The position numbers were made by a program, and so were the translations under genes. Below the pieces are notes generated by a model. The model saw only the letters and a list, made by a program, of their open reading frames with translations. It did no database searches and was not told the origin of the DNA. From contig JBCCHT010000043.1 of NCBI GenBank assembly GCA_039028615.1, forward strand, positions 1-64,000: 64,000 bases of DNA, read 5' to 3'. Origin of the DNA: Myxococcota bacterium. GTDB taxonomy: Bacteria; Myxococcota_A; Polyangia; Nannocystales; Nannocystaceae. Below, piece after piece: positions 27,490 to 42,559 of the stretch. Every line of letters starts with the position of its first letter. Position 1 is the first letter of the stretch.

Positions 27490-28659
27490 ATGCCGATGCG
27501 AAGGATCGAGCTGGTCGTGGGGATGGGGCTTCTGCTGGGCCCCCTGGCGTACGCGCTCACCCTCGAGCCCCAGACGGAGACCGAGCTGGTGATCGTCCAC
27601 GAGGTCGCCCCGGCGCCCGAGGCCTTCCCGCAAAGCGAGACCATTCCCGTGCTCGAGCCCGCCGCCGAGGCCGAGCCCGCCGCGGCCGAGCCTGCGCCCG
27701 AGCCCATCCCCGAGGATGCGATCGCGTTCGCGTTCGTCAACGAAGCCGGCATCGTCCTCGATCCCGACGCTGACCCCTCGTGGGGCAAGGGTCGTCTGCG
27801 TGGCCACCCCGGCCCCGCCGAGTACCGAGCGGCCAAGCGAGCCGACGGCACCCGCGTGCCGGCCGAGCTGTGGGCGCAGCGGGGACGCACCTTCGACCTG
27901 TACGGACGCGAGGGCAAGCTGTGCACCGTCCGCATCGGGGACCTGTCCGTCCTCGCGCAGCACAACGGCCCCGATCTGTACGAAGTGTTCGCGGGCGACG
28001 GGGTCGACCCGATCGACTGGGACACCTTCGACCCCAAGAGCAAGAGCCGTCGCCAGATCCGCCATCAAGTCTGGCGCCACACCACCGACTTCAACCCCTG
28101 GCTGGTGGCCGAGCCCCTCGACGACGAGTCGTGCGAGGGCGCGCTGTGGGCCCGAGACAGCCGGCTCCCGGCGCCCGTCGTGCTCACGCGATCGATGGAC
28201 GCCAACGAGCATACCGGCCGCCGACTGGCCCAGTTCGCCACCTCGGAGGAGCTGGCCAGCAACAAGTCCAACTACGAGGAGTACTACGCCGAGCTCGATG
28301 AAGAGAGCCGCGAGTACTACGACGAGTGGGACAGCATCGCGGCCGAGCACGCCGCGAGCGCGTGGTCGTGGCGCGATGCCCAGGGCGTGACGCAGCTGGT
28401 CGAGATGACCTTCGGCGTCGACGAAGAGGGCTGCGGCGAGGGGTACTCCACCCTGATCACCAACGTGGACCGCGTCGTCGACGAGGCGTTCGTGCCCACG
28501 GAGCTCATGCCCAATGCCGTGACCGTCTTCGACGCCGACAACGATGGCCAGTGGGAAGCGCTCTACGACCACTCGTGGAACGGCGACGTCAACTATCTCG
28601 AGAGCGCGACTCTGGAGGCCGCCTGGGACATCCTTCGCGCCTACGAGTGCCCCTGCTGA
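27490..28659 (+). CDS. Hypothetical exported acidic protein ending in ECPC
   Basis: N-terminal hydrophobic segment, Pro/Glu linker, DADNDG motif. Confidence 0.75.
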   Translation: MPMRRIELVVGMGLLLGPLAYALTLEPQTETELVIVHEVAPAPEAFPQSETIPVLEPAAEAEPAAAEPAPEPIPEDAIAFAFVNEAGIVLDPDADPSWGKGRLRGHPGPAEYRAAKRADGTRVPAELWAQRGRTFDLYGREGKLCTVRIGDLSVLAQHNGPDLYEVFAGDGVDPIDWDTFDPKSKSRRQIRHQVWRHTTDFNPWLVAEPLDDESCEGALWARDSRLPAPVVLTRSMDANEHTGRRLAQFATSEELASNKSNYEEYYAELDEESREYYDEWDSIAAEHAASAWSWRDAQGVTQLVEMTFGVDEEGCGEGYSTLITNVDRVVDEAFVPTELMPNAVTVFDADNDGQWEALYDHSWNGDVNYLESATLEAAWDILRAYECPC

Positions 28660-28674
28660 AGAGCCGCCGCTCGG

Positions 28675-29253
28675 CTACTCGTGAAACTTCGAGGGGGCGG
28701 TGGCGGAGAGCACCGTGCCCTCGCGGCGGATCTGCGGTACGTCGATCGCCTGCTCGATGACGTGCTTGGCGATGACCGGCGCGACAGGGCGAATCTCGTC
28801 GTCGTACGACGCCCCGATCGCTGCGCCTCCCGCCCCGACCGCGGCCAGCAAGATCGCCGCGGCTCTCGCGCCTCGCCAGACTCGGCGCTCGACATGCAGC
28901 GACTGCTCGATGAGCGTGGGCTGAGCCAAGATCATCCGAGACGGTCGGGGTGTCCGCGTCGAGCGCCTGCGGCCACAGAGGCGCTCGACCTCGTGCACCA
29001 CCGCGCGCGGCGTCTCGAAACCCAAGATCTGGAAGTCCCCCTGGTGGTCGGGATCGATGCCGCGACGGAGCTTCTCCGCCAGGCCCGGCTCGATCTTCGG
29101 CACGCAGAGCACACGGAGCGTCGGCGGCCCCGGAGGTGCGCGTCGGACCCAACGACGGGCGCGACTGCCCAGCTCGACCCGCACCGAAAACCCCCGCGCA
29201 CGCAGCGAGTCCTCGACCGGCCCCAGCTGAGGCCCGAGGACCTCGGGCGCCAT
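28675..29253 (-). CDS. Hypothetical protein with one TM segment
   Basis: ORF 28675..29358; start chosen at MAPEV. Confidence 0.55.
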   Translation of the reverse strand: MAPEVLGPQLGPVEDSLRARGFSVRVELGSRARRWVRRAPPGPPTLRVLCVPKIEPGLAEKLRRGIDPDHQGDFQILGFETPRAVVHEVERLCGRRRSTRTPRPSRMILAQPTLIEQSLHVERRVWRGARAAAILLAAVGAGGAAIGASYDDEIRPVAPVIAKHVIEQAIDVPQIRREGTVLSATAPSKFHE

Positions 29254-29464
29254 CAGCAGCACACGGGACGGGCCTTCGACCTCGTTCGCACGCTCGCGAG
29301 CAGAAGCAGAGTACCGCCGTCGTGTGCTGTGAAGTGCCACCGCCTTCCGTGGTTCCACAGCTGCGGCGCAGCTCCAAAGAAACGGCGAGACGCGTCCCCT
29401 ACTGAACGTCGGCTCTCCCCACGACGGGCACCGCCCCTCGGGTCGCTTACGTCTTCAACGACGA

Positions 29465-29496
29465 GAGCCGACTCGCAGGGACATGCGAGTCGGCTC
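29465..29496. terminator. Perfect 13-bp hairpin immediately downstream of tRNA-Phe
   Basis: GAGCCGACTCGCA-gggaca-TGCGAGTCGGCTC. Confidence 0.65.
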
Positions 29497-29498
29497 GG

Positions 29499-29578
29499 TG
29501 GTGCCTCGGGACGGACTCGAACCGCCGACGCCCACAGGTTCAGTGTGGCGCTCTTGATTTCCACTGAGCTACCGAGGC
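29499..29578 (-). tRNA. tRNA-Phe(GAA), atypical (C37, 12-nt D-loop), CCA encoded
   Basis: GCCTCGG TA GCTC AGTGGAAATCAA GAGC G CCACA CTGAACC TGTGG GCGTC GGCGG TTCGAGT CCGTC CCGAGGC A CCA. Confidence 0.85.
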
Positions 29579-29660
29579 GAGTGTGACCGGGTGCGGCCCG
29601 ACCTCGTTCGTCAGGAACGAGAGCCGGGCGAGCCGAAACACTCGCCGCCACAACCATCAG

Positions 29661-29733
29661 TGCCAGGGGTGGGATTCGAACCCACGATCGTCGCTTCATG
29701 AGAGCGCTGCCTTGACCACTCGGCCACCCTGGC
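29661..29733 (-). tRNA. tRNA(CAT), probably elongator Met (Ile2 not excluded), atypical G37
   Basis: GCCAGGG TG GCC GAGTGGTCAA GGC A GCGCT CTCATGA AGCGA CGATC GTGGG TTCGAAT CCCAC CCCTGGC A. Confidence 0.87.
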
Positions 29734-29929
29734 AGAGGGGAGCGAGGCAGTGCGCATGAGTTCGTCGTGGGTCGTGATGCGTTGAAGTCGTAGAGTCATC
29801 GTTCGTTCTCTCGGGTGGTGCCGGGCCAACGAGGTGCCGGCCGGCGAACACGGAGCCATGACCCGTGAAGAGCCCCTTACGGGTGCTCGACCATCAATGA
29901 AATGACCAATGGAGTTGCACCCGAAACGC

Positions 29930-30007
29930 TCAACACGTGCCGAACATGAAGCCCATGCCGAACATTCGCTCGGTGTTCATGGGGGTCGTCGTCGTGAAGC
30001 GTTCCAT
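29930..30007 (-). CDS. Putative Met/Phe-rich leader peptide MERFTTTTPMNTERMFGMGFMFGTC
   Basis: Manual translation; AAGG RBS; 5 ATG and 4 TTC codons in 25; lies between the promoter and tRNA-Met/tRNA-Phe. Confidence 0.6.
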   Translation of the reverse strand: MERFTTTTPMNTERMFGMGFMFGTC

Positions 30008-30049
30008 GATGCAACCTTGGTTGCCCGTCGGTTCGACGGAGGTTCATTT

Positions 30050-30078
30050 TGTTTACGGCGCAGATCCGAGGTGGTCAA
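30050..30078 (-). promoter_or_regulatory. Sigma70-like promoter of the Met/Phe tRNA unit
   Basis: TTGACC-17 nt-TAAACA. Confidence 0.5.
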
Positions 30079-30217
30079 GCGATGAAATCGAAGAAAGTTT
30101 CGCCCACTCTGTCGCACCGCGGGACTCGAGCATTGACCCTTCGCACCACGCCAACTCAGCGAAGCCCGTCGACCGACGCAAAGCCACACCCCTTCCATCG
30201 TCGTCACGACACAGTCG

Positions 30218-30377
30218 CGACTCGACGCCCCTCGCCATCACGGCCAAACCACGACACGGCGCCCCTGGTCGTGACGATGAGGCTGCGACTCGACGGCCCC
30301 GCCGTGATGACGAACGCGGGACTCGACGGCCCTCGCTCCACGACCAGGCCACGCGACGCGACGGCCGGCGCGGCCAC
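30218..30377. repeat. Degenerate tandem repeat of about 34 bp, 4-5 units
   Basis: Units begin cgactcgacgccc, cgacacggcgccc, cgactcgacggcc, ggactcgacggcc and cgacgcgacggcc at 33-35 bp spacing. Confidence 0.45.
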
Positions 30378-30453
30378 TCCTTCGCTCGAGCGATGTGCTC
30401 GGTCCCCTCACGAGGACCGCTCGCGCTTTGTCCTTGAAGTCCTCCAATCGTGC

Positions 30454-30485
30454 ATTATTATGAGTGGGCGGTCACCCACAATAAT
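30454..30485. promoter_or_regulatory. Imperfect inverted repeat, probable TetR operator
   Basis: ATTATTATGAGTG-ggcggt-CACCCACAATAAT (11/13 match) just before the hydrolase-TetR operon. Confidence 0.6.
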
Positions 30486-30488
30486 CCA

Positions 30489-31349
30489 ATGGCGAAAATC
30501 AGCAGTCAATTCATCGAGGTAGAGGGCCTACGGCTCCATTGCCTGGTCGCTGGCGAGGCACTCGGGGATCCCGTCCTCCTCCTGCACGGGTGGCCCACCA
30601 ACGCTCAGCTGTGGCGGCACGTGCTCGCGCAGCTGGGTGAGCACCGCCGAGTCATCGCCCTCGATCTGCCCGGCTACGGCCTCTCCGACAAGCCGACCGA
30701 CGTCCGCTACTCGTTCCGGTTCTTCCAGAAGATCATCGACGGCACCCTCGACGCACTGCAGATCGACGAGCTGAGCCTTGGTGTGCACGACGCGGGCGGA
30801 CCCATCGGCATGTACTGGGCGGCCCACAACCAGCCGCGGGTCAGGTCGCTGGCGCTGCTCAACACGCTGGTCTTTCCCGAGATGTCCTGGGCGGTCAAGG
30901 CGTTCTTCCTCGCCCTTCGAACGCCCGGTCTGTCGCGCTTCATGACCAGTCCCCGCGGCATCGCCACCGCCATTCGTCTCGGCGTGGTCAACCGCGACAA
31001 GATCGACACCGAGGTGGCCGCCCTGTACCAAGCGCCCTACCGCGATCGCGAGTCTCGGGCGGCGCTCCTGCACGCAGCCAAGGGCCTCAGCCTCCGCGGC
31101 TTCCACACCATCGCCAAGGCCATCCCCGAGCTGAAGATCCCCGTGCGCATCATCTACGGCGAGATCGACCGCGCCCTCCCCGACGTCGCCAAGACCATGG
31201 CTCGGGTGCAGACGCTCGTGCCCCACGCCGAGCTCACCTCCTTGCCCAACATCGGCCACTTTCTGCAAGAAGACGCCCCCGAAGAGGTCGCGGCGCTGGT
31301 CACCGAGTTTTTCGCTCGCTCCGAGACTCGGGTGCGCCAGTCGGCGTAG
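30489..31349 (+). CDS. Alpha/beta hydrolase (haloalkane dehalogenase/epoxide hydrolase-like)
   Basis: LLHGWP, DLPGYGLSDKP, HDAGG nucleophile elbow and GHFLQED. Confidence 0.93.
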   Translation: MAKISSQFIEVEGLRLHCLVAGEALGDPVLLLHGWPTNAQLWRHVLAQLGEHRRVIALDLPGYGLSDKPTDVRYSFRFFQKIIDGTLDALQIDELSLGVHDAGGPIGMYWAAHNQPRVRSLALLNTLVFPEMSWAVKAFFLALRTPGLSRFMTSPRGIATAIRLGVVNRDKIDTEVAALYQAPYRDRESRAALLHAAKGLSLRGFHTIAKAIPELKIPVRIIYGEIDRALPDVAKTMARVQTLVPHAELTSLPNIGHFLQEDAPEEVAALVTEFFARSETRVRQSA

Positions 31350-31361
31350 GCTCCAATCGTC

Positions 31362-31961
31362 GTGCCGCGCATCTCGAAGGAAGAACGCAAGCTCGTACGG
31401 GCGCGCCTGCTCGACAGCGCCGCCCGGCACTTCGCCGAGCACGGCCTCGCCGGGGCCAACATCAACCGCATCTCGCTCGACGCCGGCTACGCCAAGGGCA
31501 CCATCTACAACTACTTCGCCTCGAAGGAAGAGCTGTTCGCCACGATCTTGCGCTCGGGCAGCGACGTCACCGTGCTGCGCTATCGCGAGCGCCAGGTCGA
31601 GGGCGACCTGCGAGTTCACCTGCTCGCGCTCGCCGAAGAGGACGTCGCCCTGGTCCAAAAGCACGAGCCCTTCATGCAGGTCATCGTGCGCGAGCTGCTG
31701 AGCACCCGACCCGCGACCCGCGAGCATCTCGATGCCGGGCTGCGTCCGCTGATGGAGGTCATCGTCGGGCTCATCGACGGTGCACGCCAGCGGGGGGAGC
31801 TGCGCACCGACCTCGAGACCCCGCAGCTGGCCACCCTGTTCGTGGGCCAAATGACGATGCTCTACGCCGAGCACTGGCGCAGCGACGGCGTCTGGCCCAC
31901 CTGGGAACAACTCCCGCAGCTGCTGGTCACCGTGTTCTTCGAAGGCATGAAGCCCCGCTGA
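31362..31961 (+). CDS. TetR/AcrR family transcriptional regulator
   Basis: FAEHG..INRISLDAGYAKGTIYNYFASKEELF. Confidence 0.95.
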   Translation: MPRISKEERKLVRARLLDSAARHFAEHGLAGANINRISLDAGYAKGTIYNYFASKEELFATILRSGSDVTVLRYRERQVEGDLRVHLLALAEEDVALVQKHEPFMQVIVRELLSTRPATREHLDAGLRPLMEVIVGLIDGARQRGELRTDLETPQLATLFVGQMTMLYAEHWRSDGVWPTWEQLPQLLVTVFFEGMKPR

Positions 31962-32020
31962 ACGCGGGCCCTGCCGCTGTCCGCCCGATTGGTCTATACG
32001 GGAGGCAGGATCCGCCGTTC

Positions 32021-33115
32021 ATGGAGCTGTCGACCGCCCACGGGCCCCTGCCCGCCCCTTGCTACATCCCCGACGCGACCCGCGGGTTCGTGCGCTCCGT
32101 CGACGCCAGCGACCTCGAGGCGGTGGGCATCCCCGCGTTGATGATCAACGCGTACCACCTCATGACGCGGCCCGGCATTCGGGTAGTGCAACGGCTGGGT
32201 GGGCTGCATCGCTTCGCGGGATGGTCGGGGCCGATCGTCACCGACTCGGGCGGCTTTCAGGTGTTCTCGCTGATCCGGCAGAACCCCAAGCACGGACAGA
32301 TTCGCGACAACGAGATCGTCTTCCGCCCTCCCGACGGCAAGGACAAGCTCATCCTCACCCCCGAGAAGGTCGTGCAGACCCAGTTCCGGCTGGGCGCCGA
32401 CGTGATGGTCGCCCTCGACGACTGCACCGGACCCGAAGCGCCTGCCGACGAGCAGCGCCGGGCCGTCGATCGCACCGTGGCCTGGGCCCGACGCGCGCTC
32501 GTGGAGTTCAATCGTCAGCTTGCCCAGCGTCGCAGCAAAGACATTCCCCCGACCCTGGTCGCCCCGATTCAAGGCGGCAACGATCCCGCGCTACGACGAG
32601 ACTGCGCCAACGCCCTGCTCGATGCCGGCCTCACCACCTTTGGCTTCGGCGGCTGGCCCCTCGACGAGCACGGTGCGCTGCAGCTCGACATGTTCCAGGT
32701 GCTGCACGAGCTGCTGCCCATGACCACGCCTCTGTTCGCGCTGGGCGTGGGCAAGCCCGAGCACCTCACCGCCATCACGGCGCTGGGTCGACCCGCCGTG
32801 TTCGACAGCAGCCTGCCCACCCGCGATGCTCGACACCATCGCCTCTACCGCTTCCGCGACGCGCTGCCCGAGGGGCCGCTGACCTCGGGCCGAGACTTCT
32901 TCGAACGGCTGTACATCCTCGACAAGAAGCACGCGACCGCCGACGAGCCGATCTCGCCGCATTGCGATGCGTTGTGTTGTCGCCGCTATAGCCGGGGTTA
33001 TCTGCACCACCTGTTCAAGTGCGAAGACCCTCTGGCCAAGCGCCTGGCGACGCTGCACAACCTGCGCTTTTACACGCAGCTGGCGGCCCATCTGCAAGAG
33101 CACGGCGCTCGCTGA
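32021..33115 (+). CDS. tgt: tRNA-guanine transglycosylase family protein (divergent)
   Basis: NAYHL..RPG, TDSGGFQ, LDDC, IQGG, GVG, FDSSLPTRDARH and HNL. Confidence 0.9.
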   Translation: MELSTAHGPLPAPCYIPDATRGFVRSVDASDLEAVGIPALMINAYHLMTRPGIRVVQRLGGLHRFAGWSGPIVTDSGGFQVFSLIRQNPKHGQIRDNEIVFRPPDGKDKLILTPEKVVQTQFRLGADVMVALDDCTGPEAPADEQRRAVDRTVAWARRALVEFNRQLAQRRSKDIPPTLVAPIQGGNDPALRRDCANALLDAGLTTFGFGGWPLDEHGALQLDMFQVLHELLPMTTPLFALGVGKPEHLTAITALGRPAVFDSSLPTRDARHHRLYRFRDALPEGPLTSGRDFFERLYILDKKHATADEPISPHCDALCCRRYSRGYLHHLFKCEDPLAKRLATLHNLRFYTQLAAHLQEHGAR

Positions 33116-33390
33116 AGCCCGGTCGTCGCCGCGCCTACGACTCGCCCCCGGAGTCACCGGCCGCGAGTCGGTTGAAGCCGTGGCCCTTCACAATGGGGAC
33201 GACGCGGGTCACCGCGAGCCCATCGGTCGCACCAATTGCGAACCGACGCGGCCAACTCGTCCACCGTGTTCGACTGCACTGTACCACTGACTGTCAGAAC
33301 CGCAACGAGGAAGTCTATGCCGCCAGATAGCCCTTGCGCCACGAATTCGGCCGGTCATACTCGCCAACCGTGGTTGAGGTGGAACACCCA

Positions 33391-33897
33391 ATGGAGGTGC
33401 CGGACTCCGTGTCTCGGCAATTGTCGGACGACGAGCAAGCCCGGCTGATGACCTGGTGGATGACCCTGGACGCCGACGAGCGACGTGCACTCGTCGGGTC
33501 GTGGGCCGCCGACGCTCCGTCGCGACCCGAGCTCGACGACGAGCTGATGCTCTTGCTGGAGCCGCGCTTCATCGACCCGAGCAACCGCGAGCACCAGCGG
33601 AACCTCGAGGAGAACTACGAAGCCTACGTGCAGCGACTCGAGTACATCCGCTCGCATCCCGAGTACAAATGGTCGCTCGAGGTTCGCAATTTTCACATCT
33701 GTCGAGCCCACCGCCGAGCCCGAGCGGCGGTCGAGACGGGCCGGCTGCGCGCCGACTTCGAGTGTCCTCTCGCTCGCGATTCGTGTCCCATGCGGAGGCT
33801 GCTCGACCTGCGACCGGGTCATGATGTCGAGCTCGCGATCGTGGGCCTGCGGTCTGGCCGAGCGCTCCCTTCGAGCCATGACCGACCTTCGATGTGA
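33391..33897 (+). CDS. Hypothetical protein with possible metal-binding C/H motif
   Basis: FHICRAH...FECP..CPM; start uncertain. Confidence 0.65.
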   Translation: MEVPDSVSRQLSDDEQARLMTWWMTLDADERRALVGSWAADAPSRPELDDELMLLLEPRFIDPSNREHQRNLEENYEAYVQRLEYIRSHPEYKWSLEVRNFHICRAHRRARAAVETGRLRADFECPLARDSCPMRRLLDLRPGHDVELAIVGLRSGRALPSSHDRPSM

Positions 33898-34195
33898 AGG
33901 CGGTTGCCTACGTGGTGCGGTGCGTTTCGCAGTCACGCTGCCCAGCAAGTGGTGTGCCCACTGCCGCCGCCACCTCTGCCGAAAGGTCCACGGTGCGGCG
34001 TACGTCACAGGGCTCGGCAAGGGCGAGGACTGCTTCGAGTTCACGAAGGGTGAAGACGGTCGTCCGCGTTCACCTCCTCCGCGCAGGCGTAGCGCGGTTG
34101 ATGTCGGCATTGCGGCAGTAGGAGGCATGGCGCGTCGGCGGAAGGAATCGTTCGGTTTCCCCAGTTCGGAGGAACTCCCGGTACCGAGCCGTTGA
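33878..34195 (+). pseudogene. Degenerate GFA (CENP-V) family gene
   Basis: EGGCLRGAVRF and AHCRRHLCRKVHGA resemble GxCxCG / CHCxxCR with Cys losses; similarity ends after about 60 aa. Confidence 0.6.
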
Positions 34196-34303
34196 AGTAA
34201 GCGGCCTCGTTGATCCGCATCACACCGCGAGTCCATCACGAGCGCTCGAGCGAGTTCCCGACGGCGAGGCGTGGGTGTTTGTCGTTAGGCTTCGCGTGGG
34301 CGC

Positions 34304-35797
34304 ATGACTACGCATCACCCGAATAACCCCCCCACCCCGCGACCCGGTGTCAGCGGACTCTCCTTGTATGTACCTCGACCTCGCGTCTCGCTCGATCAGT
34401 GGTGCGAGTGGACCGGAGCACCCGCCGACAAAGTGCAGGCCGTCGTCGGCCGCAGCTTTCGCATGTGCTCGCCAGCCGAGAACGTCTACACCATGGCCGC
34501 CTCGGCGGCTCTTCGTCTGATCGACGCCTACGACATCGATCCACGACGCATCGGCATGCTGGCTCTCGGTACCGAGTCGAGCACCGACAACGCGGCCGGA
34601 GCCGTCATCGTCAAAGGCATGCTGGACCGAGCCCTGCGCGAGCAAGGTCGACCCGCCATCTCGCGCACCTGCGAAGTACCCGAGGTCAAGCACGCCTGCC
34701 TCGGCGGCATGTATGCCCTCAAGAGCGCGCTGCGTTATGCCAGCTGCGACGCCGACGATCGCGTCGCCCTCGTGCTCGCAGCCGACGTCGCCGAGTATGC
34801 GCGCGGGAGCACGGGCGAGCAGACCCAAGGCGCGGGCGCGGTGGCCATGCTCGTCGAGCGCGAGGCCAAGCTCTTCACCGTCGACCTCAGCCGCACGGGC
34901 AGCGCTGCCGCCTACCGGGGGGCGGACTTCCGCAAGCCGATGGCGCGCCACTTCATGGCCGAGTACGAAGCCGGCACCCGACGCCTGCACGACTTCCCCG
35001 TCTTCAACGGCAAGTACTCCACCCTGTGCTACCTCGACGAAGTCATCGCCGCGCTCGAGGACATGTTCAGCCGCGGTGACCAAGATCCCGAGGAGTTCTA
35101 CGGCCAGCTCGCCGCCGTCTTCCTGCATCGGCCCTATCACTACTTGCCCATTCAGGCGATGGCGCATGCCCTGGTCTGGAGCCTCGGAAAATCCGACGCG
35201 CAGGCCGCACGCTTCGACGCCCTCTGTTCGGAGGCCGGCGTGGACGCGTCGATCGCCCGGACCCAGATCCGCGCCGAGGTCGACCTCGTCCAGGAAGCCG
35301 AGGCCCACGGCCCCGACGCCGACCCCTTCGCCGCCGCCCAGCAGGTCGCCAAGCACTACGGCCGCAGCAAGGACTTCAAGCGCTTCGTCTCCGAGCACAT
35401 GAACCTCGGCACCGAGCGGGTCAAGTCGCTCGGCAACCTCTACACCGGCTCGTTGCCGGCTTGGCTCGCGGGCGCATTCGCGGACGCCCACGCCTCCGAC
35501 CTCTCGCTCGCCGGACGCCGCATGCTCGCGGTCGGCTACGGCAGTGGTGACGCAGCCGAAGCCTGGCCCATCGAAGTCTGCCCCGACTGGAAGGATGCCG
35601 CCGCCCGGATCGGCTTCGACGAGGCCCTCGCCGAAGCCATCGACCTCGACCGCGCCAGCTATGAGGCCCTCCACGACGGCCAAGAGCTCCCCACCCCGCT
35701 CGAGCGACCGTGGGGCTTTTCCATCGCCGACGTCGGCCGCCAGTGCGAGCCGCAGTGGCAAGACATCGGTATCGAGTACTACCGCTGGGCCGGCTGA
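34304..35797 (+). CDS. mvaS: Hydroxymethylglutaryl-CoA synthase family protein
   Basis: GTES, KHACLGG catalytic Cys, GEQTQGAGAVA, HRPY, GNLYTGS and GYGSG. Confidence 0.9.
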   Translation: MTTHHPNNPPTPRPGVSGLSLYVPRPRVSLDQWCEWTGAPADKVQAVVGRSFRMCSPAENVYTMAASAALRLIDAYDIDPRRIGMLALGTESSTDNAAGAVIVKGMLDRALREQGRPAISRTCEVPEVKHACLGGMYALKSALRYASCDADDRVALVLAADVAEYARGSTGEQTQGAGAVAMLVEREAKLFTVDLSRTGSAAAYRGADFRKPMARHFMAEYEAGTRRLHDFPVFNGKYSTLCYLDEVIAALEDMFSRGDQDPEEFYGQLAAVFLHRPYHYLPIQAMAHALVWSLGKSDAQAARFDALCSEAGVDASIARTQIRAEVDLVQEAEAHGPDADPFAAAQQVAKHYGRSKDFKRFVSEHMNLGTERVKSLGNLYTGSLPAWLAGAFADAHASDLSLAGRRMLAVGYGSGDAAEAWPIEVCPDWKDAAARIGFDEALAEAIDLDRASYEALHDGQELPTPLERPWGFSIADVGRQCEPQWQDIGIEYYRWAG

Positions 35798-35817
35798 CCT
35801 TCACGGTCGCTCCAACC

Positions 35818-35856
35818 AAAAGAGGCGGCCAGGGCTCGTAGGGAACCCTGGCCGCC
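35818..35856. terminator. Intrinsic terminator between convergent genes
   Basis: GGCGGCCAGGG...CCCTGGCCGCC, followed by TCTTTT on the minus strand. Confidence 0.65.
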
Positions 35857-35962
35857 CGGTCGACCGCTCACCCTGCCACGCCGAGTTGTGGACAGCGACG
35901 AGGTCGTGCGGCACGGGGGTTGTGCCGCACGGGGGCGAGTCGGTGGACGCAAAAACCCTGCG

Positions 35963-37420
35963 CTAGGGGACTTCGTCGATGCCGGGGTAGCCGGGGGCCT
36001 CCTGCGGGCGGGGATCGCCGTCGACGTCGAAGAGCGGATCGCCCTCGTCCCAGTCGGCGATGTCGGCGAAGACGCTCTGGCCCTCCGCGCTGAGGTGGAA
36101 GTCGCCCGCGGGGGCGTCGACGAACCAATCCGAGTCGAAGATGCCGACGGACTGACCTGCGCCCAGGCCCCCGTCGACGGCGTTGTCGGCGAAGGTGAGC
36201 GAGCACCAGGAGCTGAACGAACCCGGGTAGGCGCCGACGATGATGCTGTTGCGGATCTCTCCGCCCCCGCTGCTGCCGTCACAGCTCACGGTGTTGTGAT
36301 TGCCCGCGATGGTGGAGTGGTACAGCCGCAGCTCACCGCTCTCGATGGAGACGGCGGTGTCGGAGCCAGGGCCGATGCTGCTGTTGGTGGCCTGGAACAT
36401 ACCGTCACCGATGATGCGGATGGCGACGCTCTCCGGCTCGGCGGCGGTGAAGCGGCTACGCCGGGCGTAGGTGTCGCAATCGGTGTCGATCGAGGTGGAG
36501 TAGCCGTTGATGGTGATGTCGTCCATCCACAGCAGGTTTCCGTGGCGACACTGGATGGCGCGGAAGGGGCCGTCGTCGAGGGCGACCTCGGACAGGTAGA
36601 GAATGCGCTGGGTGTCCTCGCTGGTGAGGACGAACAGATTGGTGGCGCCGCCCGTGATGACGGTGCCCGGCTGCCCGATCACCGCGACTTCACCCGCGAC
36701 CTGCAGCGTTCCGTTGATTTCGTAGACCCCCGACGCGAGGCGGATGACCCGCTGCGAGCCGATGCCCAGCTCGCTCAGCGCGGTCTCGAGCTCGTCGGCG
36801 GTGGAGGCATCGACGACGTCGCCGGGGTCGAAGCAGGAGCCCTGCTCGGGGCCCAGCAAGTGGCAGGCGGAGTCGGGACAGTCGGAATGCTCGGTGCACG
36901 CGGCACAGCCGAGACCGGGATCGCAGACCGGAGTGTCGCCCGAGCAGCTGTCGGCCACACAGGCGACACACTGACCTTCGGCACCGCACAGGGGCGCGAG
37001 CGGGTCGTCGTCGGCACACAGCTGGTCGGGCGCGTCGGCGTCGGAGCAAGGACCGCAGGCACCCTCGATGCAGAAGGCTCCGGCGTCGCAGTCGGCGTGG
37101 CCCTCACACTCGGGGGCGGGACCATCGTCGGTGTCGCCGGGCTCGGGGCCATCGGTGTTCCCGTCGGCCCCATCGGCGGAAGGTTGGTCGGTGTCGACCC
37201 CCGGTTCGGGGGTGCCGTCGGTGTCGATGGCGCTCGTGTCGGGGCTGGCGGCCGAGGTGGATCCCTCACCGTCGTCGCTGTCGAGCGGCGACATCTCGGG
37301 GTTGAAGCACGCGGTGGCACCGAGCAAGGCGAGCAACCCGACCGCGGACGACACGGCACCCCGCGAGCGACGAACGGGGAAACAAACAGTGTTATCGGGC
37401 GAACTATTGATGTCGAACAT
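35963..37420 (-). CDS. Cys-rich lipoprotein with probable beta-helix C-terminal domain
   Basis: Lipobox ATAC; acidic linker; Cys repeats; STIAGN/NSII and GDFHL..PGIDE motifs; start may be downstream. Confidence 0.8.
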   Translation of the reverse strand: MFDINSSPDNTVCFPVRRSRGAVSSAVGLLALLGATACFNPEMSPLDSDDGEGSTSAASPDTSAIDTDGTPEPGVDTDQPSADGADGNTDGPEPGDTDDGPAPECEGHADCDAGAFCIEGACGPCSDADAPDQLCADDDPLAPLCGAEGQCVACVADSCSGDTPVCDPGLGCAACTEHSDCPDSACHLLGPEQGSCFDPGDVVDASTADELETALSELGIGSQRVIRLASGVYEINGTLQVAGEVAVIGQPGTVITGGATNLFVLTSEDTQRILYLSEVALDDGPFRAIQCRHGNLLWMDDITINGYSTSIDTDCDTYARRSRFTAAEPESVAIRIIGDGMFQATNSSIGPGSDTAVSIESGELRLYHSTIAGNHNTVSCDGSSGGGEIRNSIIVGAYPGSFSSWCSLTFADNAVDGGLGAGQSVGIFDSDWFVDAPAGDFHLSAEGQSVFADIADWDEGDPLFDVDGDPRPQEAPGYPGIDEVP

Positions 37421-37443
37421 TCGAAGGGTCCTGAGCGAGAAAG

Positions 37444-37520
37444 TGGTACCTGGGGAGGGATTCGAACCCCCAACCTCCCGGGTCTGAGCCGGTCGCCTCT
37501 ACCAATTGGGCTACCCAGGC
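37444..37520 (-). tRNA. tRNA-Leu(CAG), atypical: short variable loop, A37, G1.U72; CCA encoded
   Basis: GCCTGGG TA GCC CAATTGGTAGA GGC G ACCGG CTCAGAC CCGGG AGGTT GGGGG TTCGAAT CCCTC CCCAGGT A CCA. Confidence 0.87.
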
Positions 37521-37565
37521 ATAGGCGTTCCCATCGGGGAACGTGGACGACTTTTTTTCTGCCAG

Positions 37566-37639
37566 CGCGGCGTCGAGGATTCGAACCTCGGGCCTCCCGA
37601 TTCGTAGTCGGGTGCTCTATCCAGCTGAGCTAACGCCGC
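37566..37639 (-). tRNA. tRNA-Arg(ACG)
   Basis: GCGGCGT TA GCTC AGCTGGATA GAGC A CCCGA CTACGAA TCGGG AGGCC CGAGG TTCGAAT CCTCG ACGCCGC G. Confidence 0.95.
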
Positions 37640-37771
37640 ATGTCGTCACGGCGTGCGCACGCACGAACCGCGACCACGCGTCATCACCCGGCGAGCCTCG
37701 CAGGACCTACGAGACCACCGTTGGCAGAGCAACGTCGTCTTGGTTTTGGACTGACTCGCCCAACTGGCGAG

Positions 37772-37885
37772 TTACGCGACGCGAAGAAGGCGTCGACCAC
37801 CCACGCGCAGGCGCAAGCGCAGCCGACCGCCCAGCGTACGCTGGCTGTCTCGCCGCAAGCTCCGTGCCTGAACCTTCGTGGTCAT
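37772..37885 (-). CDS. Putative Arg/Leu-rich leader peptide MTTKVQARSLRRDSQRTLGGRLRLRLRVGGRRLLRVA
   Basis: Manual translation; 11 Arg and 7 Leu in 37 aa; hairpin 37754-37772 at the stop; upstream of tRNA-Arg/tRNA-Leu. In-frame ATGs also at 37906 and 37915. Confidence 0.55.
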   Translation of the reverse strand: MTTKVQARSLRRDSQRTLGGRLRLRLRVGGRRLLRVA

Positions 37886-37892
37886 GGTCTGC

Positions 37893-37923
37893 TTGCTATG
37901 CGGCATGGATCCCATACCGTCAA
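37893..37923 (-). promoter_or_regulatory. Sigma70-like promoter of the Arg/Leu tRNA unit
   Basis: T-tract followed by TTGACG (37923-37918), then a weak -10 (CATAGC/TAGCAA) 17-19 nt downstream. Confidence 0.4.
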
Positions 37924-37952
37924 GAAAAAATCTTCGACTGGTTTCGCCGTCT

Positions 37953-38732
37953 CTAGGACTGCGCCGCTTTGCGGTCGCGCTTGCGGAGCTTCCGTCGCGG
38001 CTTGTCGCGCTCGGTCTCGCTGCCCTCGGTGGGGGCGGGTGGCCCCGCGCCTTCGGGTGCCCCCTCGATCACCAGCACGTACTCACCCCGCAGCTTCGTG
38101 TCGCCCAGCCCCTCGAGCAAACTCGACAAGGTGCCACGCTGGACCTGCTCGAACTTCTTGGTGAGGTCGTTGGCCAGCGCGGCCGGGCGATCGCCATAGA
38201 CCTCGAGCGCGTCGCGAAGCAACGCCTCCACCCGGTAAGGGCTCTCGTAGAAGAGCAAGGTGTGCGGCGAGTACTGGTCGACCTCCAAGAAGCGCTTGCG
38301 CTTGCCCGACTTGCGCGGCGCAAACCCGCGGAAGGTGAACGAGTGTAGCGGCAGGCCGCTGAGCACCAGCGCCATGACGAACGCCGAAGGCCCCGGGATC
38401 ATCGTGACCTCGAGCCCCTCTTCGTGACACAGGCGCACGAGTGAGAAGCCGGGGTCGGCGATGCCGGGCGTGCCCGCGTCGGAGACCAGCGCGACGTCTC
38501 GACCTTCGTGGAGCAGCCGAATGATCTTCCCGCCTACCCGAGACTCGTTGTGCTCGTGGAAGGGCATCTGCCGCGCCTTGATCTCGTGCCGCGTCAGGAG
38601 CTTGGCCGTGTGCCGCGTGTCCTCGCTCGCCACGATGTCGACGCTTCGAAGCACCTCGATCGCGCGGAGCGAGATGTCCTCGAGATGACCGATGGGCGTG
38701 GCGACGACGTAGAGCATCGACCTGGCGAGCAT
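37953..38732 (-). CDS. rsmI: 16S rRNA (cytidine1402-2'-O)-methyltransferase
   Basis: [38 protein letters not shown] and YESPYR. Confidence 0.95.
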
Positions 38733-38976
38733 TGGCCAGCCGGGCCGCGTTGGCAACTGCTCGGACGAACCGGGTCCCCACTCGCGCTCGGCATCGTGCA
38801 GCACGCAATCTCGCCCCCGGCGAGGCGCTCGCGGGTCGCAAAGCCATGGCAACGACTGTCGCCACGCAAACTTTCTCGACATTTCGAGTGAGAGGACGAG
38901 GGCAGCGTGGGAACTACAAGGTCGGTCGCGAGCAATGAGGCGACCACACAACGACCGTATTCGATCGGACCCCCAA

Positions 38977-40212
38977 ATGCTCATGCTCCCCTCCAATCAG
39001 CTCCTTCGCCCCCTCTTTGCCTGCCTGATGGTCAGCACCTGCGTATCCGCGTGCGACGAAGGCGGCGACTTCAACGATGACGAGACCGCACTCGACGACG
39101 TGACGTTGCGCTCGGCCCAGGCTTGCGGAAGCGACATCCCCGTGACCTCGAGCCAGTGGCGTATTCGCAACGCGAGCGTCCAGACCCACTCCGGACAGTG
39201 GGTCATCCGCGAGATGGACTTCTGCGCGGACGCGGCCTGCACCGAGACCCTGACCGGCACCGCGTTCGATAGCGGGGCCTCCGAGAGCTGGAGCGTGGCG
39301 GCCAACGCCTTCGACGGCGATGCCGGCACCATGTGGAAGACCTTCGACACCAACGTCGTGGGACAGTCGTGGATCGGCCTGGAGCTGGACAGCCCCGCCG
39401 CGGTGGCGGGCCTCCGCATTCAGACCGACAACGTCGTCTACTCGGTCGACTCGATCGACGTGGAGTACCTCGACGAGGGCAGCGGCGAGTGGATCACCGC
39501 CGACACCCTCACCGACGTCCCGGCCGGCACCGAGCTCACCTACGAGATCGACGGCCCCGTGATGGACATTCCCTGCGACGTCGAGGTCGACGATCAGGCC
39601 ACGGTCATCATGCCCGGAACCGAGCTGACCGGGCTGTCCGCGGACACGGGCGAGGTGCTCTACTACGCGGTGGTGAACCCGGGACCGGACTTCCTCGTCG
39701 AGATCACCGGGGGCCCCGGCGACGCAGATCTGTACCTGCGATACGGCGAGCTACCCACGGCGTCGGAATACGATTGCCGGCCCTACAAGTGGGGCAACGG
39801 AGAGTCCTGCGAGGTCGCGCAGCCGTCCGGCGGCGTCTACTACATCATGCTGCGCGCCTACGCGAGCTTCAGCGACTTGTCGCTGATCGTCAGCGACGCC
39901 GGGCCCGTCGCGCCCACGCCGGTGGTCGAGGCCGATCTGTCCGCCGCCACGGGCGAGTGGCTCCGCTACGAGTTCGCCGTGCCGATCGGAGCCAGCAATG
40001 CGACCTTTGAGATCGACGGAGGCAGCGGGGACGGAGACATGTACATCCGCTACGGCGAGCAACCCACGGCCACCGAATACGACCACCGCCCCTACAAGTG
40101 GGGCAATGGCGAGACCGTCTCCATCGCGGACCCGCAGGCGGGCGTCTACTACGTCGGCATTCGTTCCTACGCGGCGTTCGCCGGCATGACCCTGACGATG
40201 AGCTACGAGTAG
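38977..40212 (+). CDS. Lipoprotein with a discoidin/F5-8-like domain and two PPC (pre-peptidase C-terminal) domains
   Basis: VSAC lipobox; [11 protein letters not shown]; two copies of GGxGDxDxYxRYGxxPT..[12 protein letters not shown]. Confidence 0.85.
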
Positions 40213-40219
40213 GACCGAC

Positions 40220-41035: not shown

Positions 41036-41133
41036 CGCCCGGAGGGTAGCGCGCCACTCCAACGAAAACGACGCCCCCACAGTGCAGGGACGTCGTCTCG
41101 AAGTCAGGGCTGCCGTAGCCCCGGCGGGACCCT

Positions 41134-42522: not shown

Positions 42523-42559
42523 GGCGAAGTGACTCCGTTTTCCGAAAATGCCTTTGTGC

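What the first reader, a model, noticed from the sequence alone, without database searches (positions are those of the whole stretch)
29465..37923. Two tRNA-pair cassettes, each headed by a leader peptide enriched in the amino acids those tRNAs decode
Seen: the same layout occurs twice, about 8 kb apart on the minus strand, with no obvious shared primary sequence. Each has a TTGAC promoter, a short ORF, hairpin(s) and two tRNA genes. Cassette 1 pairs the leader ...MFGMGFMFG with tRNA(CAT) and tRNA(GAA). Cassette 2 pairs the leader ...RLRLRLRVGGRRLLR with tRNA(ACG) and tRNA(CAG). Known: ribosome-mediated attenuation through codon-rich leaders controls amino-acid biosynthesis operons and pheST. 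I do not know of codon-matched leaders controlling tRNA genes themselves. Inference: ribosome stalling on codons whose tRNA is depleted or damaged (anticodon nuclease, toxin, loss of modification) switches on replacement tRNAs, giving a self-sensing backup tRNA system.
Basis: partly seen in the sequence, partly recalled or inferred. Interest (0 to 1): 0.93.

Follow-up and report, generated by a model that had tools for sequence, protein, structure and literature searches.

The report
Codon-matched leader peptides gating spare tRNAs
Short genes placed in front of spare tRNA genes are built mostly from the amino acids those tRNAs carry, and this pairing recurs and is conserved across a family of myxobacteria, which suggests the cell reads its own decoding speed to adjust its tRNA supply.

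Summary
Both cassettes have a promoter, a small ORF, a hairpin and two tRNAs. They belong to a system of at least 8 leader-plus-tRNA-array cassettes in this 12.3 Mb genome, which uses two leader families.

- **Matching in this genome:** the true leader/array pairing is the single best of 40,320 permutations.
- **Matching elsewhere:** in 17 cassettes from other genera, 0 of 200,000 permutations reach the observed match.
- **Translation:** the leader ORFs keep their frame in 24 of 27 cases, across 10 different lengths.
- **RNA structure:** a covarying long-range helix pairs the start-codon region with the stop-codon region. It competes with a hairpin that begins at the stop codon.
- **EF-Tu:** the Arg/Leu-type leader also precedes Pro arrays and a divergent EF-Tu paralogue in 4 of 6 genomes of the genus.
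- **Spare copies:** every cassette anticodon also has a leaderless copy elsewhere in the genome.

Best reading: a ribosome-sensing, attenuator-like leader links decoding speed for given amino acids to expression of spare tRNAs. The polarity, the output step and the trigger are not shown. No U-tract terminator is present, and matching holds at amino-acid level, not isoacceptor level. My five literature searches found no description of such control.

The parts
30050..30100 (-). Cassette 1 promoter. It has an A/T-rich upstream stretch, -35 TTGACC (30078-30073), a 17-nt spacer and -10 TAAACA (30055-30050).
   Evidence: Sequence. Other family-A cassettes and ordinary tRNA genes of the genome have the same layout. 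The generic scan does not call it.
30025..30039 (-). Small 5'UTR hairpin (6-bp stem, 3-nt loop) between the promoter and the leader start.
   Evidence: Other family-A leaders have an equivalent small hairpin.
29930..30007 (-). Leader ORF 1 (family A), 25 aa, MERFTTTTPMNTERMFGMGFMFGTC. It has 4 Met and 4 Phe codons after the start.
   Evidence: Covariance model R1 scores it 130.1 bits. 0 of 18,541 random small ORFs are as rich in Met+Phe.
29990..30012 (-). 5' strand of long-range helix P1. It covers the bases just before the start codon, the start codon and codons 2-6.
   Evidence: RNAalifold consensus. On 27 leaders, 91.5% of cells are paired and 8 of 16 pairs show compensatory changes.
29870..29940 (-). 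Switch region. The last two codons, the stop codon and about 18 nt form the 3' strand of P1 or the 5' arm of hairpin H. H runs from 29931 to 29870.
29660..29733 (-). tRNA with anticodon CAT. I read it as elongator Met, because leaders upstream of CAT tRNAs are Met-rich. It has G at position 37 where the three other CAT tRNAs have A.
   Evidence: (66.3 bits).
29499..29578 (-). tRNA-Phe (GAA), 80 nt. It has an enlarged D-loop, C at position 37 and an encoded CCA end.
   Evidence: (52 bits).
29465..29496 (-). 13-bp G+C-rich hairpin directly after tRNA-Phe, probably the end of the transcription unit. The tail is only moderately T-rich.
   Evidence: Sequence. The terminator scan does not call it.
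37895..37935 (-). Cassette 2 promoter. It has a T-rich upstream stretch, -35 TTGACG (37923-37918), a 17-nt spacer and -10 CATAGC (37900-37895).
   Evidence: Sequence. It is conserved in 6 family-B leaders.
37772..37885 (-). Leader ORF 2 (family B), 37 aa, MTTKVQARSLRRDSQRTLGGRLRLRLRVGGRRLLRVA. It has 11 Arg and 7 Leu codons.
   Evidence: R2 scores it 222.4 bits. 61 of 18,541 random small ORFs are as rich in Arg+Leu.
37754..37772 (-). 7-bp hairpin with a 5-nt loop that starts in the stop codon. Its stem sequence is identical in the 4 Arg/Leu leaders and the G004 EF-Tu leader (the loop has one extra base in 2 of them). A compensatory G-C to A-U change occurs in the EF-Tu leader of this genome.
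37565..37639 (-). tRNA-Arg (ACG), canonical in shape.
   Evidence: (69 bits).
37444..37520 (-). tRNA with anticodon CAG (Leu), 77 nt, without the long variable arm of ordinary bacterial tRNA-Leu. It has A at position 37 where the housekeeping copy has G, A73 and an encoded CCA.
   Evidence: (56.9 bits). Relatives have three such short Leu tRNAs (GAG, CAG, CAA).

Best explanation
Each cassette is one transcription unit. A strong tRNA-type promoter drives a short translated leader, and 60-330 nt downstream lies an array of second-copy tRNA genes.

The leader's variable middle is built from codons for the amino acids that the array's tRNAs carry. Its conserved ends are RNA. In family A (cassette 1), the start-codon region pairs with the stop-codon region (helix P1). 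This competes with a hairpin (H) that begins at the stop codon. In family B (cassette 2), a conserved hairpin abuts the stop codon.

Where the first ribosome sits decides which fold forms. A ribosome stalled on the matched codons gives one fold, and a ribosome that has reached the stop codon melts both. The fold in turn decides how much array RNA is made or survives.

I infer that slow decoding turns the array on, so that the cell tops up tRNAs it is short of. The same leader type gates a divergent EF-Tu paralogue.

**Shown:** the anatomy, its conservation, the amino-acid matching, frame conservation, and covariation of P1.

**Inferred:** translation of the leader, the polarity, the output step (termination, Rho, processing or stability) and the physiological trigger.
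For: **A repeated system in this genome.** There are 8 cassettes, and their promoters lie 257-416 nt upstream (7 contain TTGAC; the Cys/Gln cassette's box is TAGACA). Ordinary tRNA genes have the promoter 40-80 nt upstream.

**Matching of leader to array.**
- The true pairing is the unique best of 40,320 permutations. All 8 arrays find their amino acids most enriched in their own leader.
- For 32 cassettes, 20 non-redundant ones, 17 outside genus g1, and 12 non-redundant outside g1, 0 of 200,000 permutations reach the observed value.
- For 19 of 19 amino acids, the frequency is higher in leaders whose array holds that tRNA.

**The leader evolves with the array.**
- The window's Met/Phe-only array has MFGMGFMFG. 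Orthologous leaders in front of Met-Phe-Lys-Asn arrays carry Lys and Asn codons.
- Leader 2 keeps the rare CTT and TTG codons. These match the Leu-GAG and Leu-CAA tRNAs that the relatives' arrays still hold.

**Translation.**
- In 24 of 27 family-A leaders the conserved ATG or GTG is in frame with the conserved TGA. ORF length varies over 10 values from 24 to 48 codons.
- A purine-rich box lies 8-12 nt before the start.

**Rare codons.** A/T-ending codons make up 30 of 83 matched codons against 8.1 expected. Among unmatched codons the figure is 32 of 158 against 15.5 expected.

**RNA switch.**
- P1 has 91.5% of cells paired, against 85.9% in shuffles (0 of 500 reach it). 8 of 16 pairs have compensatory changes. 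Slid controls pair 22-60%.
- The MFE of the free RNA shows P1 in 11 of 27 and H in 15 of 27, with one or the other in 25 of 27. A ribosome footprint at the stop removes both (1 of 27 each).
- The upper stem of H shows U-A to C-G changes.

**Spare copies.** All 23 cassette anticodons also occur outside the cassettes.

**Same leader type on other elongation parts.** In the genus, R2 finds 4 Arg/Leu arrays, 2 Pro arrays and 4 EF-Tu paralogues. The EF-Tu paralogue scores 533 bits on TIGR00485 and is 54% identical to the housekeeping tuf.
Against: - **No intrinsic terminator.** No hairpin with a U-tract lies between either leader and its tRNAs, and the hairpins after the stop codons lack U-tails. 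The classical output step is therefore missing.
- **No predicted switch direction.** Thermodynamic folding with a ribosome stalled two-thirds into the ORF gives H in 18 of 27 and P1 in 7 of 27.
- **No isoacceptor-level matching overall.** 181 of 234 codons are decodable by the own array against 174.7 expected. Thr is the exception, with 44 of 62 against 32.5.
- **Some leaders match poorly.** G074, G018 and G070 (Thr and Asp arrays; Asp alone in G070) have 3-11% matched residues. G052 and G051 (Thr only) have 10%. The Pro leader of this genome has 11%, which 44% of random small ORFs reach.
- **No expression data.** Translation and regulation are untested.
- **Incomplete and partly biased sampling.** The ORFs for three G000 cassettes (Ser/Tyr, Cys/Gln, Pro) were picked by eye. 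Several further R1 hits (for example G002:C141, G002:C4, G005:C141, G022:C9) were not examined.
Confidence: 0.7

Rival explanations
1. The sensor is the same but the polarity is opposite. Stalling on codons of a scarce amino acid shuts transcription of the matching tRNA genes. This would be a codon-specific counterpart of stringent control of stable RNA.
For: - Matching is at amino-acid level, not isoacceptor level. This fits sensing of aminoacylation rather than loss of one tRNA species.
- The hairpin abuts the stop codon, so a terminating ribosome would melt it. If the hairpin is the stop signal, completed translation means read-through.
- With a ribosome stalled in the ORF, H is the favoured fold in 18 of 27.
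Against: - The housekeeping tRNA genes, which make up the bulk of tRNA synthesis, have no leaders. A saving device placed only on spare copies makes little sense.
- The hairpins lack U-tracts.
- The only studied supernumerary tRNA array, in Anabaena, is induced when translation is impaired (PMC8421152, passages read).
Confidence: 0.15
2. The small ORFs encode functional peptides, for example precursors that tRNA-dependent enzymes modify or extend. The adjacent tRNAs would serve their synthesis rather than being regulated by them.
For: A C-terminal Cys is conserved in 23 of 27 family-A peptides, and the N-terminus M-x-R-(S/T/F)-T is conserved.
Against: - The conserved peptide ends coincide with the two strands of helix P1 and change in a compensatory way at the RNA level.
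- The peptide middle is hypervariable and follows the array.
- No biosynthetic enzyme lies in the unit. The window neighbours are a hydrolase, a TetR regulator, Tgt, an HMG-CoA synthase and RsmI, on other strands or beyond the unit.
- The same leader type precedes EF-Tu.
Confidence: 0.05
3. An untranslated RNA element binds the tRNAs directly through its repeated codons. This would be T-box-like sensing of uncharged tRNA without a ribosome.
For: Codons matched to the tRNAs lie in a structured leader upstream of translation-related genes, as in T-boxes.
Against: - No T-box or any other Rfam family matches either leader, even at E up to 1.
- The frame is conserved across 10 ORF lengths.
- There are many matched codons, whereas a T-box uses a single specifier.
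Confidence: 0.04
4. The pattern is chance: spurious small ORFs in G+C-rich spacers that happen to look matched.
For: Arg, Leu, Ser, Ala and Pro are common in random ORFs of this genome. The Pro, Ser/Tyr and 7-tRNA leaders are not extreme: 44%, 3.3% and 13% of random small ORFs reach their values.
Against: Permutation tests, conservation across at least 8 genera, frame conservation and covariation all argue against chance.
Confidence: 0.01

Closest known systems
Ribosome-mediated transcription attenuation of amino-acid biosynthesis operons (trpL, hisL, pheL, leuL, thrL, ilvL leaders). Recalled from general knowledge; abstracts seen in the listing (PMC1183508, PMC3082878).
   Same: A short leader ORF sits directly behind the promoter and is enriched in 'regulatory' codons, including rare synonymous ones. 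Mutually exclusive RNA pairings overlap the end of the ORF, so that the ribosome's position chooses the fold.
   Different: - The controlled genes are tRNAs and an EF-Tu paralogue, not biosynthetic enzymes.
- Leaders report on two to nine amino acids at once.
- The competing helix pairs the start-codon region with the stop-codon region.
- No hairpin-plus-U-tract terminator is present.
pheST attenuator with the pheM leader
   Same: A codon-rich leader peptide controls a gene of the translation apparatus for the same amino acid.
   Different: It controls an aminoacyl-tRNA synthetase through a classical terminator. Here the tRNA genes themselves are controlled.
T-box riboswitches (recalled).
   Same: They sense the state of one tRNA species and regulate genes that serve that amino acid.
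   Different: They work by direct tRNA binding, without an ORF. No Rfam T-box match was found here.
Anabaena sp. PCC 7120 trn operon, a long supernumerary tRNA array (PMC8421152, passages read; PMC10272220, abstract seen).
   Same: Extra tRNA copies are kept apart from the housekeeping set and induced when translation is impaired.
   Different: - One array of 23-26 tRNAs sits on a megaplasmid.
- It is regulated at the promoter by direct repeats and the repressor TrcR.
- The words 'leader' and 'attenuat' do not occur in PMC8421152.
tRNA arrays of phages and mycobacterial plasmids, seen as countermeasures to tRNA-cleaving defences (PMC12409363 and PMC12803027, abstracts seen).
   Same: They hold spare tRNAs, some with altered anticodon loops. 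Here position 37 differs from the housekeeping copy in Met, Phe, Leu-CAG, His and Gln.
   Different: Those arrays are on mobile elements and have no codon-matched sensor. Here the arrays are chromosomal, small (2-10 genes), sorted by amino acid and each gated by its own leader.

Membership tests
tRNA (Rfam RF00005) | The covariance-model score reaches the gathering threshold of 29 bits. | tested here: met
   One search gives 69, 66.3, 56.9 and 52 bits for the four genes. The fifth ARAGORN call (Ala-AGC, 42671-42756) has no Rfam match.
Leader-peptide (ribosome-mediated) attenuator | A short ORF with a start codon and ribosome-binding site lies directly downstream of the promoter and is conserved as an ORF. 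| tested here: met
   - 24 of 27 family-A leaders keep the frame between the conserved start and the conserved TGA, over 10 lengths.
- A purine-rich box precedes the start.
- The family-B ORF is conserved in 10 loci.
Leader-peptide (ribosome-mediated) attenuator | The leader is enriched in codons for the amino acid(s) that the regulated genes serve. | tested here: met
   Searches support this. Exceptions are listed.
Leader-peptide (ribosome-mediated) attenuator | Mutually exclusive RNA structures exist, and the ribosome's position on the leader sets which one forms. | tested here: met
   P1 and H share one strand. P1 covaries and H partly covaries. A footprint at the stop codon abolishes both. 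This was worked out for family A only.
Leader-peptide (ribosome-mediated) attenuator | An intrinsic terminator (G+C-rich hairpin followed by a U-tract) lies between the leader and the regulated genes. | tested here: not met
   Searches find no terminator-like site on the cassette strand. The tails after H and after the family-B hairpin are not U-rich.
Leader-peptide (ribosome-mediated) attenuator | Leader translation and codon-dependent read-through are shown experimentally. | not testable with these tools
   No RNA run holds the stretch.
T-box riboswitch | Stem I with a specifier loop, plus the conserved T-box antiterminator sequence. | tested here: not met
   The Rfam scan at E up to 1 over 28500-43500 returns only tRNA and weak antisense tRNA look-alikes.
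Long tRNA array (L-array / tRNA array unit) | At least about 20 tRNA genes at high density in one block. | tested here: not met
   Arrays here hold 2-7 tRNAs in this genome and up to 10 in relatives.

The most novel reading that the evidence does not exclude
Nannocystaceae keep a second, normally silent decoding set. It comprises spare tRNAs for at least 18 amino acids, several with altered anticodon loops or body plans, plus a dedicated divergent EF-Tu. The set is split into modules, and each module is switched on by its own leader peptide when ribosomes slow down on exactly the codons that module serves. This would be a self-diagnosing repair circuit for the genetic code's adaptors. It could let the cell survive tRNA-cleaving toxins, loss of position-37 modification or elongation inhibitors.
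Probability: 0.35. Interest if true: 0.95.

Novelty: new variant of a known kind. Interest (0 to 1): 0.88.

Why it matters
tRNA genes are usually thought to be regulated only globally, by growth rate and stringent control. Here each small group of tRNA genes appears to carry its own sensor of how well its codons are being read.

If that holds, it would be the first case of feedback from decoding speed to the supply of the decoding molecules themselves. It would also be a natural example of a modular, inducible second tRNA and EF-Tu set.

It offers a direct handle on three open questions:
- why large-genome bacteria keep divergent extra tRNAs;
- how cells cope with tRNA-targeting toxins or modification failure;
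- how leader-peptide switches can work without classical terminators in G+C-rich bacteria.

A cultured relative that carries the cassette (a record titled Paraliomyxa miuraensis SMH-27-4) makes it testable.

Tried and rejected
- **Expression data.** No RNA holder is listed for 29400-38000. The only listed holder of the stretch is kept as a DNA contig set, so no reads were laid.
- **Generic promoter and terminator scans.** They called nothing useful in either cassette.
- **BLAST-level DNA search.** It finds the tRNAs of cassette 1 in relatives but not its leader. The leader was found only by reading the upstream DNA and then with a covariance model.
- **Isoacceptor-level matching.** I tested for it and did not find it: 181 of 234 against 174.7 expected.
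- **Rho-loading site.**
  - The first half of family-A ORFs is C-rich and G-poor (means 0.35 and 0.24), but the second half is the reverse.
  - This fits internal pairing of the ORF as well as a Rho site, so I left it as undecided.
- **Ribosome-position folding.** It shows two competing folds but not which one a stalled ribosome selects.
- **Distribution of family B beyond the genus.** I could not measure it. Five searches with model R2 failed on the server, and only the genus-wide search was answered.
- **Class-wide search with R1.** Outside the family it gave 1 weak partial match in 133 genomes. I did not follow it up.
- **Pattern scan of the species collection.** 17 of its 23 matches are chance hits inside long ORFs with no adjacent tRNA.
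- **Earlier findings of this scan.** The look-up returned nothing.
- **Literature.** Searches found no paper on leader-peptide control of tRNA genes. Subscription journals are not covered.

Full report
**1. The observation**

ARAGORN finds five tRNA genes in the window. Rfam confirms four of them at 52-69 bits against a threshold of 29:
- Met-CAT at 29660-29733 and Phe-GAA at 29499-29578;
- Arg-ACG at 37565-37639 and Leu-CAG at 37444-37520.

All four lie on the minus strand. The fifth ARAGORN call (Ala-AGC, 42671-42756) has no Rfam match and is probably false.

Upstream of each pair lies a TTGAC box, a 17-nt spacer and a TAAACA or CATAGC box. The generic sigma-70 scan does not call them. However, the genome's ordinary tRNA genes use the same TTGACx-17-TAnAnn layout.

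The two small ORFs exist. Leader 1 is at 30007-29930. Leader 2 is in the reported frame, but conservation places its start at the ATG at 37885. The ATG at 37915 lies between the -35 and -10 boxes.

I compared the leaders with 18,541 random small ATG-ORFs of the same genome. None is as rich in Met+Phe as leader 1, and 61 (0.33%) are as rich in Arg+Leu as leader 2.

**2. It is a system, not two loci**

The genome has 12,267,695 bases in 94 contigs and 86 ARAGORN predictions, some of them false.

Ordinary tRNA genes have their TTGAC box 40-80 nt upstream. Eight arrays have their promoter box 257-416 nt upstream, preceded by an A/T-rich stretch; it contains TTGAC in seven, and the Cys/Gln cassette has TAGACA instead. 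Each of these spacers holds a small ORF whose content follows the array:

| Leader | Array |
|---|---|
| MERFTTTTPMNTERMFGMGFMFGTC | Met, Phe |
| MKRTTTKTHTTTNPVAMGSFTASNSRKFGSC | Thr, Phe, Asn, Lys, Lys |
| MNRSAQTHRHHHVVIVHSMHDICPC | Asp, His |
| MERFTNISTPASAQAAALWSLVRLAGEIVAC | Ser, Ala, Trp, Cys, Val, Ile, Ser |
| MVAHESLAHVFEFCHATAYDSSSSYAYVLGSRSSSRC | four Ser isoacceptors, Tyr |
| MLRFPTELSTNAVCTAGVVVLIGCQQQCACVCG | Cys, Gln |
| the Arg/Leu leader (leader 2 of the window) | Arg, Leu |
| MKIRHQSRFVRREGQRLLFPVSHPSVWRASLNASPRPA | Pro, Pro |

Among all 40,320 ways of pairing these 8 leaders with the 8 arrays, the true one gives the highest summed fraction of matched residues. Each array's amino acids are most frequent in its own leader. 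Three of these ORFs (Ser/Tyr, Cys/Gln, Pro) were chosen by eye. The rest were chosen by homology.

All 23 anticodons found in cassettes also occur in a leaderless copy elsewhere. The cassette tRNAs are therefore second copies.

**3. Conservation, and co-variation of leader with array**

In same-genus genomes, the counterpart of cassette 1 is a Met-Phe-Lys-(Lys)-Asn array, sometimes led by Thr. The counterpart of cassette 2 is Arg (one to three copies) followed by three short Leu tRNAs with anticodons GAG, CAG and CAA. Both leaders are conserved there.

The orthologous family-A leaders keep their ends and change their middles in step with the arrays.
- Where the array has Lys and Asn tRNAs, the leader has Lys and Asn codons.
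- The window's copy, with only Met and Phe tRNAs, has none of the former and one of the latter. It has the most Met and Phe codons.
- Arrays with a CAT tRNA have 3-4 internal Met codons, and those without have 1-2.

Leader 2 still carries CTT and TTG codons, which make up 2% and 8% of Leu codons in this genome. These fit the Leu-GAG and Leu-CAA tRNAs that the relatives' arrays retain and this genome's array lacks.

**4. Wider distribution**

I built covariance model R1 from nine family-A leaders. It finds matches at E below 1e-5 in 21 of 73 genomes of the family, spread over at least eight genera.

I examined 18 fetched loci. One had no downstream DNA. The other 17 all have tRNAs just downstream. 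In most of them the leader again follows the array. Examples:

| Leader | Array |
|---|---|
| MFRFTDHTTTTTTTTVVRGIIVAFMGVDMRPR | Thr, Val, Ile, Met, His, Phe |
| MIRSTTVTTTTTITTTVVVRGIIVC | Thr, Val, Ile, Met |
| MIRFTNMMYMYTPGARFMCVMAPC | Met, Met, Phe, Met, Phe, Met |
| MKRSTKYDHASTVTVVVDIVTHVGDKIHTC | Thr, Val, Asp, Ile tRNAs (10 in all) |

Permuting arrays among leaders, 0 of 200,000 shuffles reach the observed match. This holds for all 32 cassettes, for 20 non-redundant ones, for the 17 outside the discovery genus, and for 12 non-redundant ones outside it. For each of the 19 amino acids represented, the mean frequency is higher in leaders whose array holds that tRNA. Relatedness inflates such tests, so the non-redundant and out-of-genus subsets are the safer figures.

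There are counter-examples:
- three related leaders in one genus (Thr and Asp arrays; Asp alone in one), with 3-11% matched residues;
- two leaders with a lone Thr tRNA, with 10%.

Several further R1 hits were not examined.

Outside the family, R1 finds one weak partial match in 133 genomes of the class.

A pattern scan of the species collection gave 23 matches, of which 6 have tRNAs directly downstream. Their record titles name Nannocystaceae, Nannocystales and Myxococcota assemblies, one assembly labelled Gemmatimonadota, and the cultured strain Paraliomyxa miuraensis SMH-27-4.

**5. Evidence that the ORFs are translated**

In 24 of 27 family-A leaders the conserved ATG or GTG is in frame, without stops, with the conserved TGA. 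ORF length takes ten different values between 24 and 48 codons. A purine-rich box lies 8-12 nt before the start.

Matched codons use A/T-ending synonymous codons far more than the genome does: 30 of 83 against 8.1 expected. Unmatched leader codons do so less: 32 of 158 against 15.5 expected. The Ser/Tyr leader samples codons for all four Ser anticodons of its array. These include AGT, TCT and TCA, which are 1-2% codons in this genome.

Taken over all cassettes, however, leader codons are not more often decodable by the array's own anticodons than genome usage predicts: 181 of 234 against 174.7. Thr is a partial exception, with 44 of 62 against 32.5. The matching is therefore by amino acid.

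**6. RNA anatomy**

The conserved peptide ends of family A (M-x-R-S/T/F-T at the start, Cys-stop at the end) are the two strands of a long-range helix, P1. It pairs the bases flanking and including the start codon with the last two codons, the stop codon and about 18 following bases.

On 27 leaders aligned to the model:
- 91.5% of cells are paired, against a shuffle mean of 85.9%, and 0 of 500 shuffles reach the observed value;
- 8 of 16 pairs show changes on both sides, which 1 of 500 shuffles reaches;
- sliding the partner strand drops pairing to 22-60%.

The alignment was fitted to the model, which favours the structure.

The same 3' strand is also the 5' arm of a local hairpin, H, whose base contains the stop codon. 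The upper stem of H shows U-A to C-G exchanges.

In minimum-energy folds of the free RNA, 11 of 27 leaders show P1, 15 of 27 show H, and 25 of 27 show one or the other. A ribosome footprint on the stop codon removes both, leaving 1 of 27 each.

Family B has a different anatomy. A 7-bp hairpin with a 5-nt loop starts in the stop codon of the Arg/Leu leaders, and the ORF reads through it in the Pro and EF-Tu leaders. Its stem sequence is the same in five of the six aligned leaders, with one extra loop base in two of them, and the EF-Tu leader of this genome carries a compensatory change. In both families, completing the leader would melt a conserved hairpin that a ribosome stalled further upstream would leave intact.

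**7. What is not there**

No hairpin followed by a U-tract lies between leader and tRNAs. The output step of classical attenuation is therefore missing. Rho-dependent termination, processing or stability remain open.

Folding with a ribosome placed two-thirds into the ORF does not favour one fold consistently: H in 18 of 27 and P1 in 7 of 27.

The polarity is therefore an inference from logic. Spare copies behind a sensor of slow decoding make sense as an inducible supply. The only studied supernumerary array, in Anabaena, is induced when translation is impaired, though through a promoter-bound repressor (PMC8421152, passages read; PMC10272220, abstract).

**8. Link to EF-Tu**

A profile of the family-B alignment finds a third member in this genome, at contig 40, 88077-88264. 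It lies about 360 nt upstream of a full-length EF-Tu gene (TIGR00485, 533 bits against a cut-off of 522). That gene is only 54% identical to the housekeeping tuf next to the Thr-Tyr-Gly-Thr cluster.

In the genus, model R2 finds ten leaders in 5 of 6 genomes: four before Arg/Leu arrays, two before Pro arrays and four before this EF-Tu paralogue. The EF-Tu leader uses 18 of the 20 kinds of amino acid and is not Arg/Leu-rich. The G002 Pro leader has 6 Pro in 41 residues.

**9. The spare tRNAs are unusual**

- The Leu tRNAs of these arrays lack the long variable arm.
- Position 37 differs from the housekeeping copy in five tRNAs. Met has G instead of A, and Phe has G or C instead of A. Leu-CAG, His and Gln each have A instead of G.
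- Many carry an encoded CCA end.

Whether these differences bear on charging, on modification or on resistance to anticodon-loop nucleases is not known. From general knowledge, position 37 carries the t6A, i6A and m1G modifications. The changes would therefore remove the usual modification sites. This is a lead, not a result.

**10. Context in the window**

Between the cassettes lie an alpha/beta hydrolase, a TetR regulator, a Tgt homologue, an unknown protein and an HMG-CoA synthase. The Tgt homologue scores 259.7 bits, below the equivalog cut-off of 306.75. RsmI ends 30 nt before the cassette 2 promoter. None looks co-transcribed with the tRNAs.

**11. Novelty**

I ran five full-text searches:
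- tRNA gene array, leader peptide, attenuation;
- tRNA array, translational stress;
- leader peptide, tRNA genes, ribosome stalling;
- Nannocystaceae, Paraliomyxa, tRNA;
- supernumerary or backup tRNA, anticodon nuclease, leader peptide.

None returned a paper that describes leader-peptide control of tRNA genes. The library lacks most subscription journals.

The mechanism class is known. Its application to the tRNA genes themselves, the multi-amino-acid leaders, the start-to-stop helix and the link to an EF-Tu paralogue are not.

**Verdict**

Polarity, trigger and output step are open.

Noticed in passing
G000 contig 40, 88077-89769 (locus L094/L104); also L099, L101, L103: A family-B leader lies about 360 nt upstream of a divergent EF-Tu paralogue. 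The paralogue has 382 aa and is 54% identical to the housekeeping tuf. The arrangement is conserved in 4 of 6 genomes of the genus. The leader peptide uses 18 kinds of amino acid and reads through the conserved hairpin.
   Followed up: partly
window 42671-42756 (+): ARAGORN calls an 86-nt tRNA-Ala (AGC) with its anticodon at position 32. Rfam finds no tRNA there, so it is probably a false positive.
   Followed up: yes
window 32021-33115 (+): A Tgt (tRNA-guanine transglycosylase) homologue lies between the two cassettes. It scores 259.7 bits, below the equivalog cut-off of 306.75, so it may be a divergent copy. I did not check whether the genome has another tgt.
   Followed up: no
window 29660-29733, 29499-29578, 37444-37520; other cassette tRNAs of G000: Cassette tRNAs differ from the housekeeping copies at position 37. 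Met has G instead of A, and Phe has C or G instead of A. Leu-CAG, His and Gln each have A instead of G. These are the positions that normally carry bulky or methyl modifications.
   Followed up: partly
window 29734-29790 (-); the same place in L002, L004, L026: A stretch about 20-55 nt upstream of tRNA-Met is conserved in four genomes. It would even read as a conserved peptide (H/Y-D-E-x-M) running into the tRNA. It may be a processing signal or the relic of a spacer between a lost Thr tRNA and the Met tRNA.
   Followed up: no
G000 contig 23, about 7171-7190 (L031); L026 upstream of tRNA-Thr: The last bases before the first tRNA can pair with the 5' strand of its acceptor stem. One compensatory difference separates the two genomes. 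If real, this could hold the first tRNA unfolded.
   Followed up: no
G000 contig 27, 172144-172280 (L030): The first 'tRNA-Ser (CGA), 73 nt' of the 7-tRNA array seems mis-bounded. A matching 5' acceptor strand lies about 60 nt further upstream, which would imply a hairpin insertion of about 45 nt in the D-loop.
   Followed up: no
L090 (record titled as a Gemmatimonadota assembly): This locus has a family-A leader, MKRSTTYTATTTTNLVVVAVVLPIMGDMTPC, followed by Thr, Thr, Asp, Asp tRNAs. The assembly is labelled outside Myxococcota, so this is either a binning or labelling error or horizontal spread.
   Followed up: no
window 37740-37753 (-), and the same place in L014, L015, L016, L025: A C-rich, G-poor tract of 20-25 nt directly follows the family-B hairpin in 5 of 6 leaders. 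It may be a Rho-loading or protein-binding site.
   Followed up: no
G000 arrays as a whole: Arrays tend to group tRNAs by the first letter of their codons. Thr, Met, Lys and Asn read ANN codons. Ser, Tyr, Cys and Trp read UNN codons. Arg, Leu and Pro read CNN codons. Asp and His have GUN anticodons. From general knowledge these are also the classes that share one position-37 or position-34 modification. I did not test this statistically.
   Followed up: no
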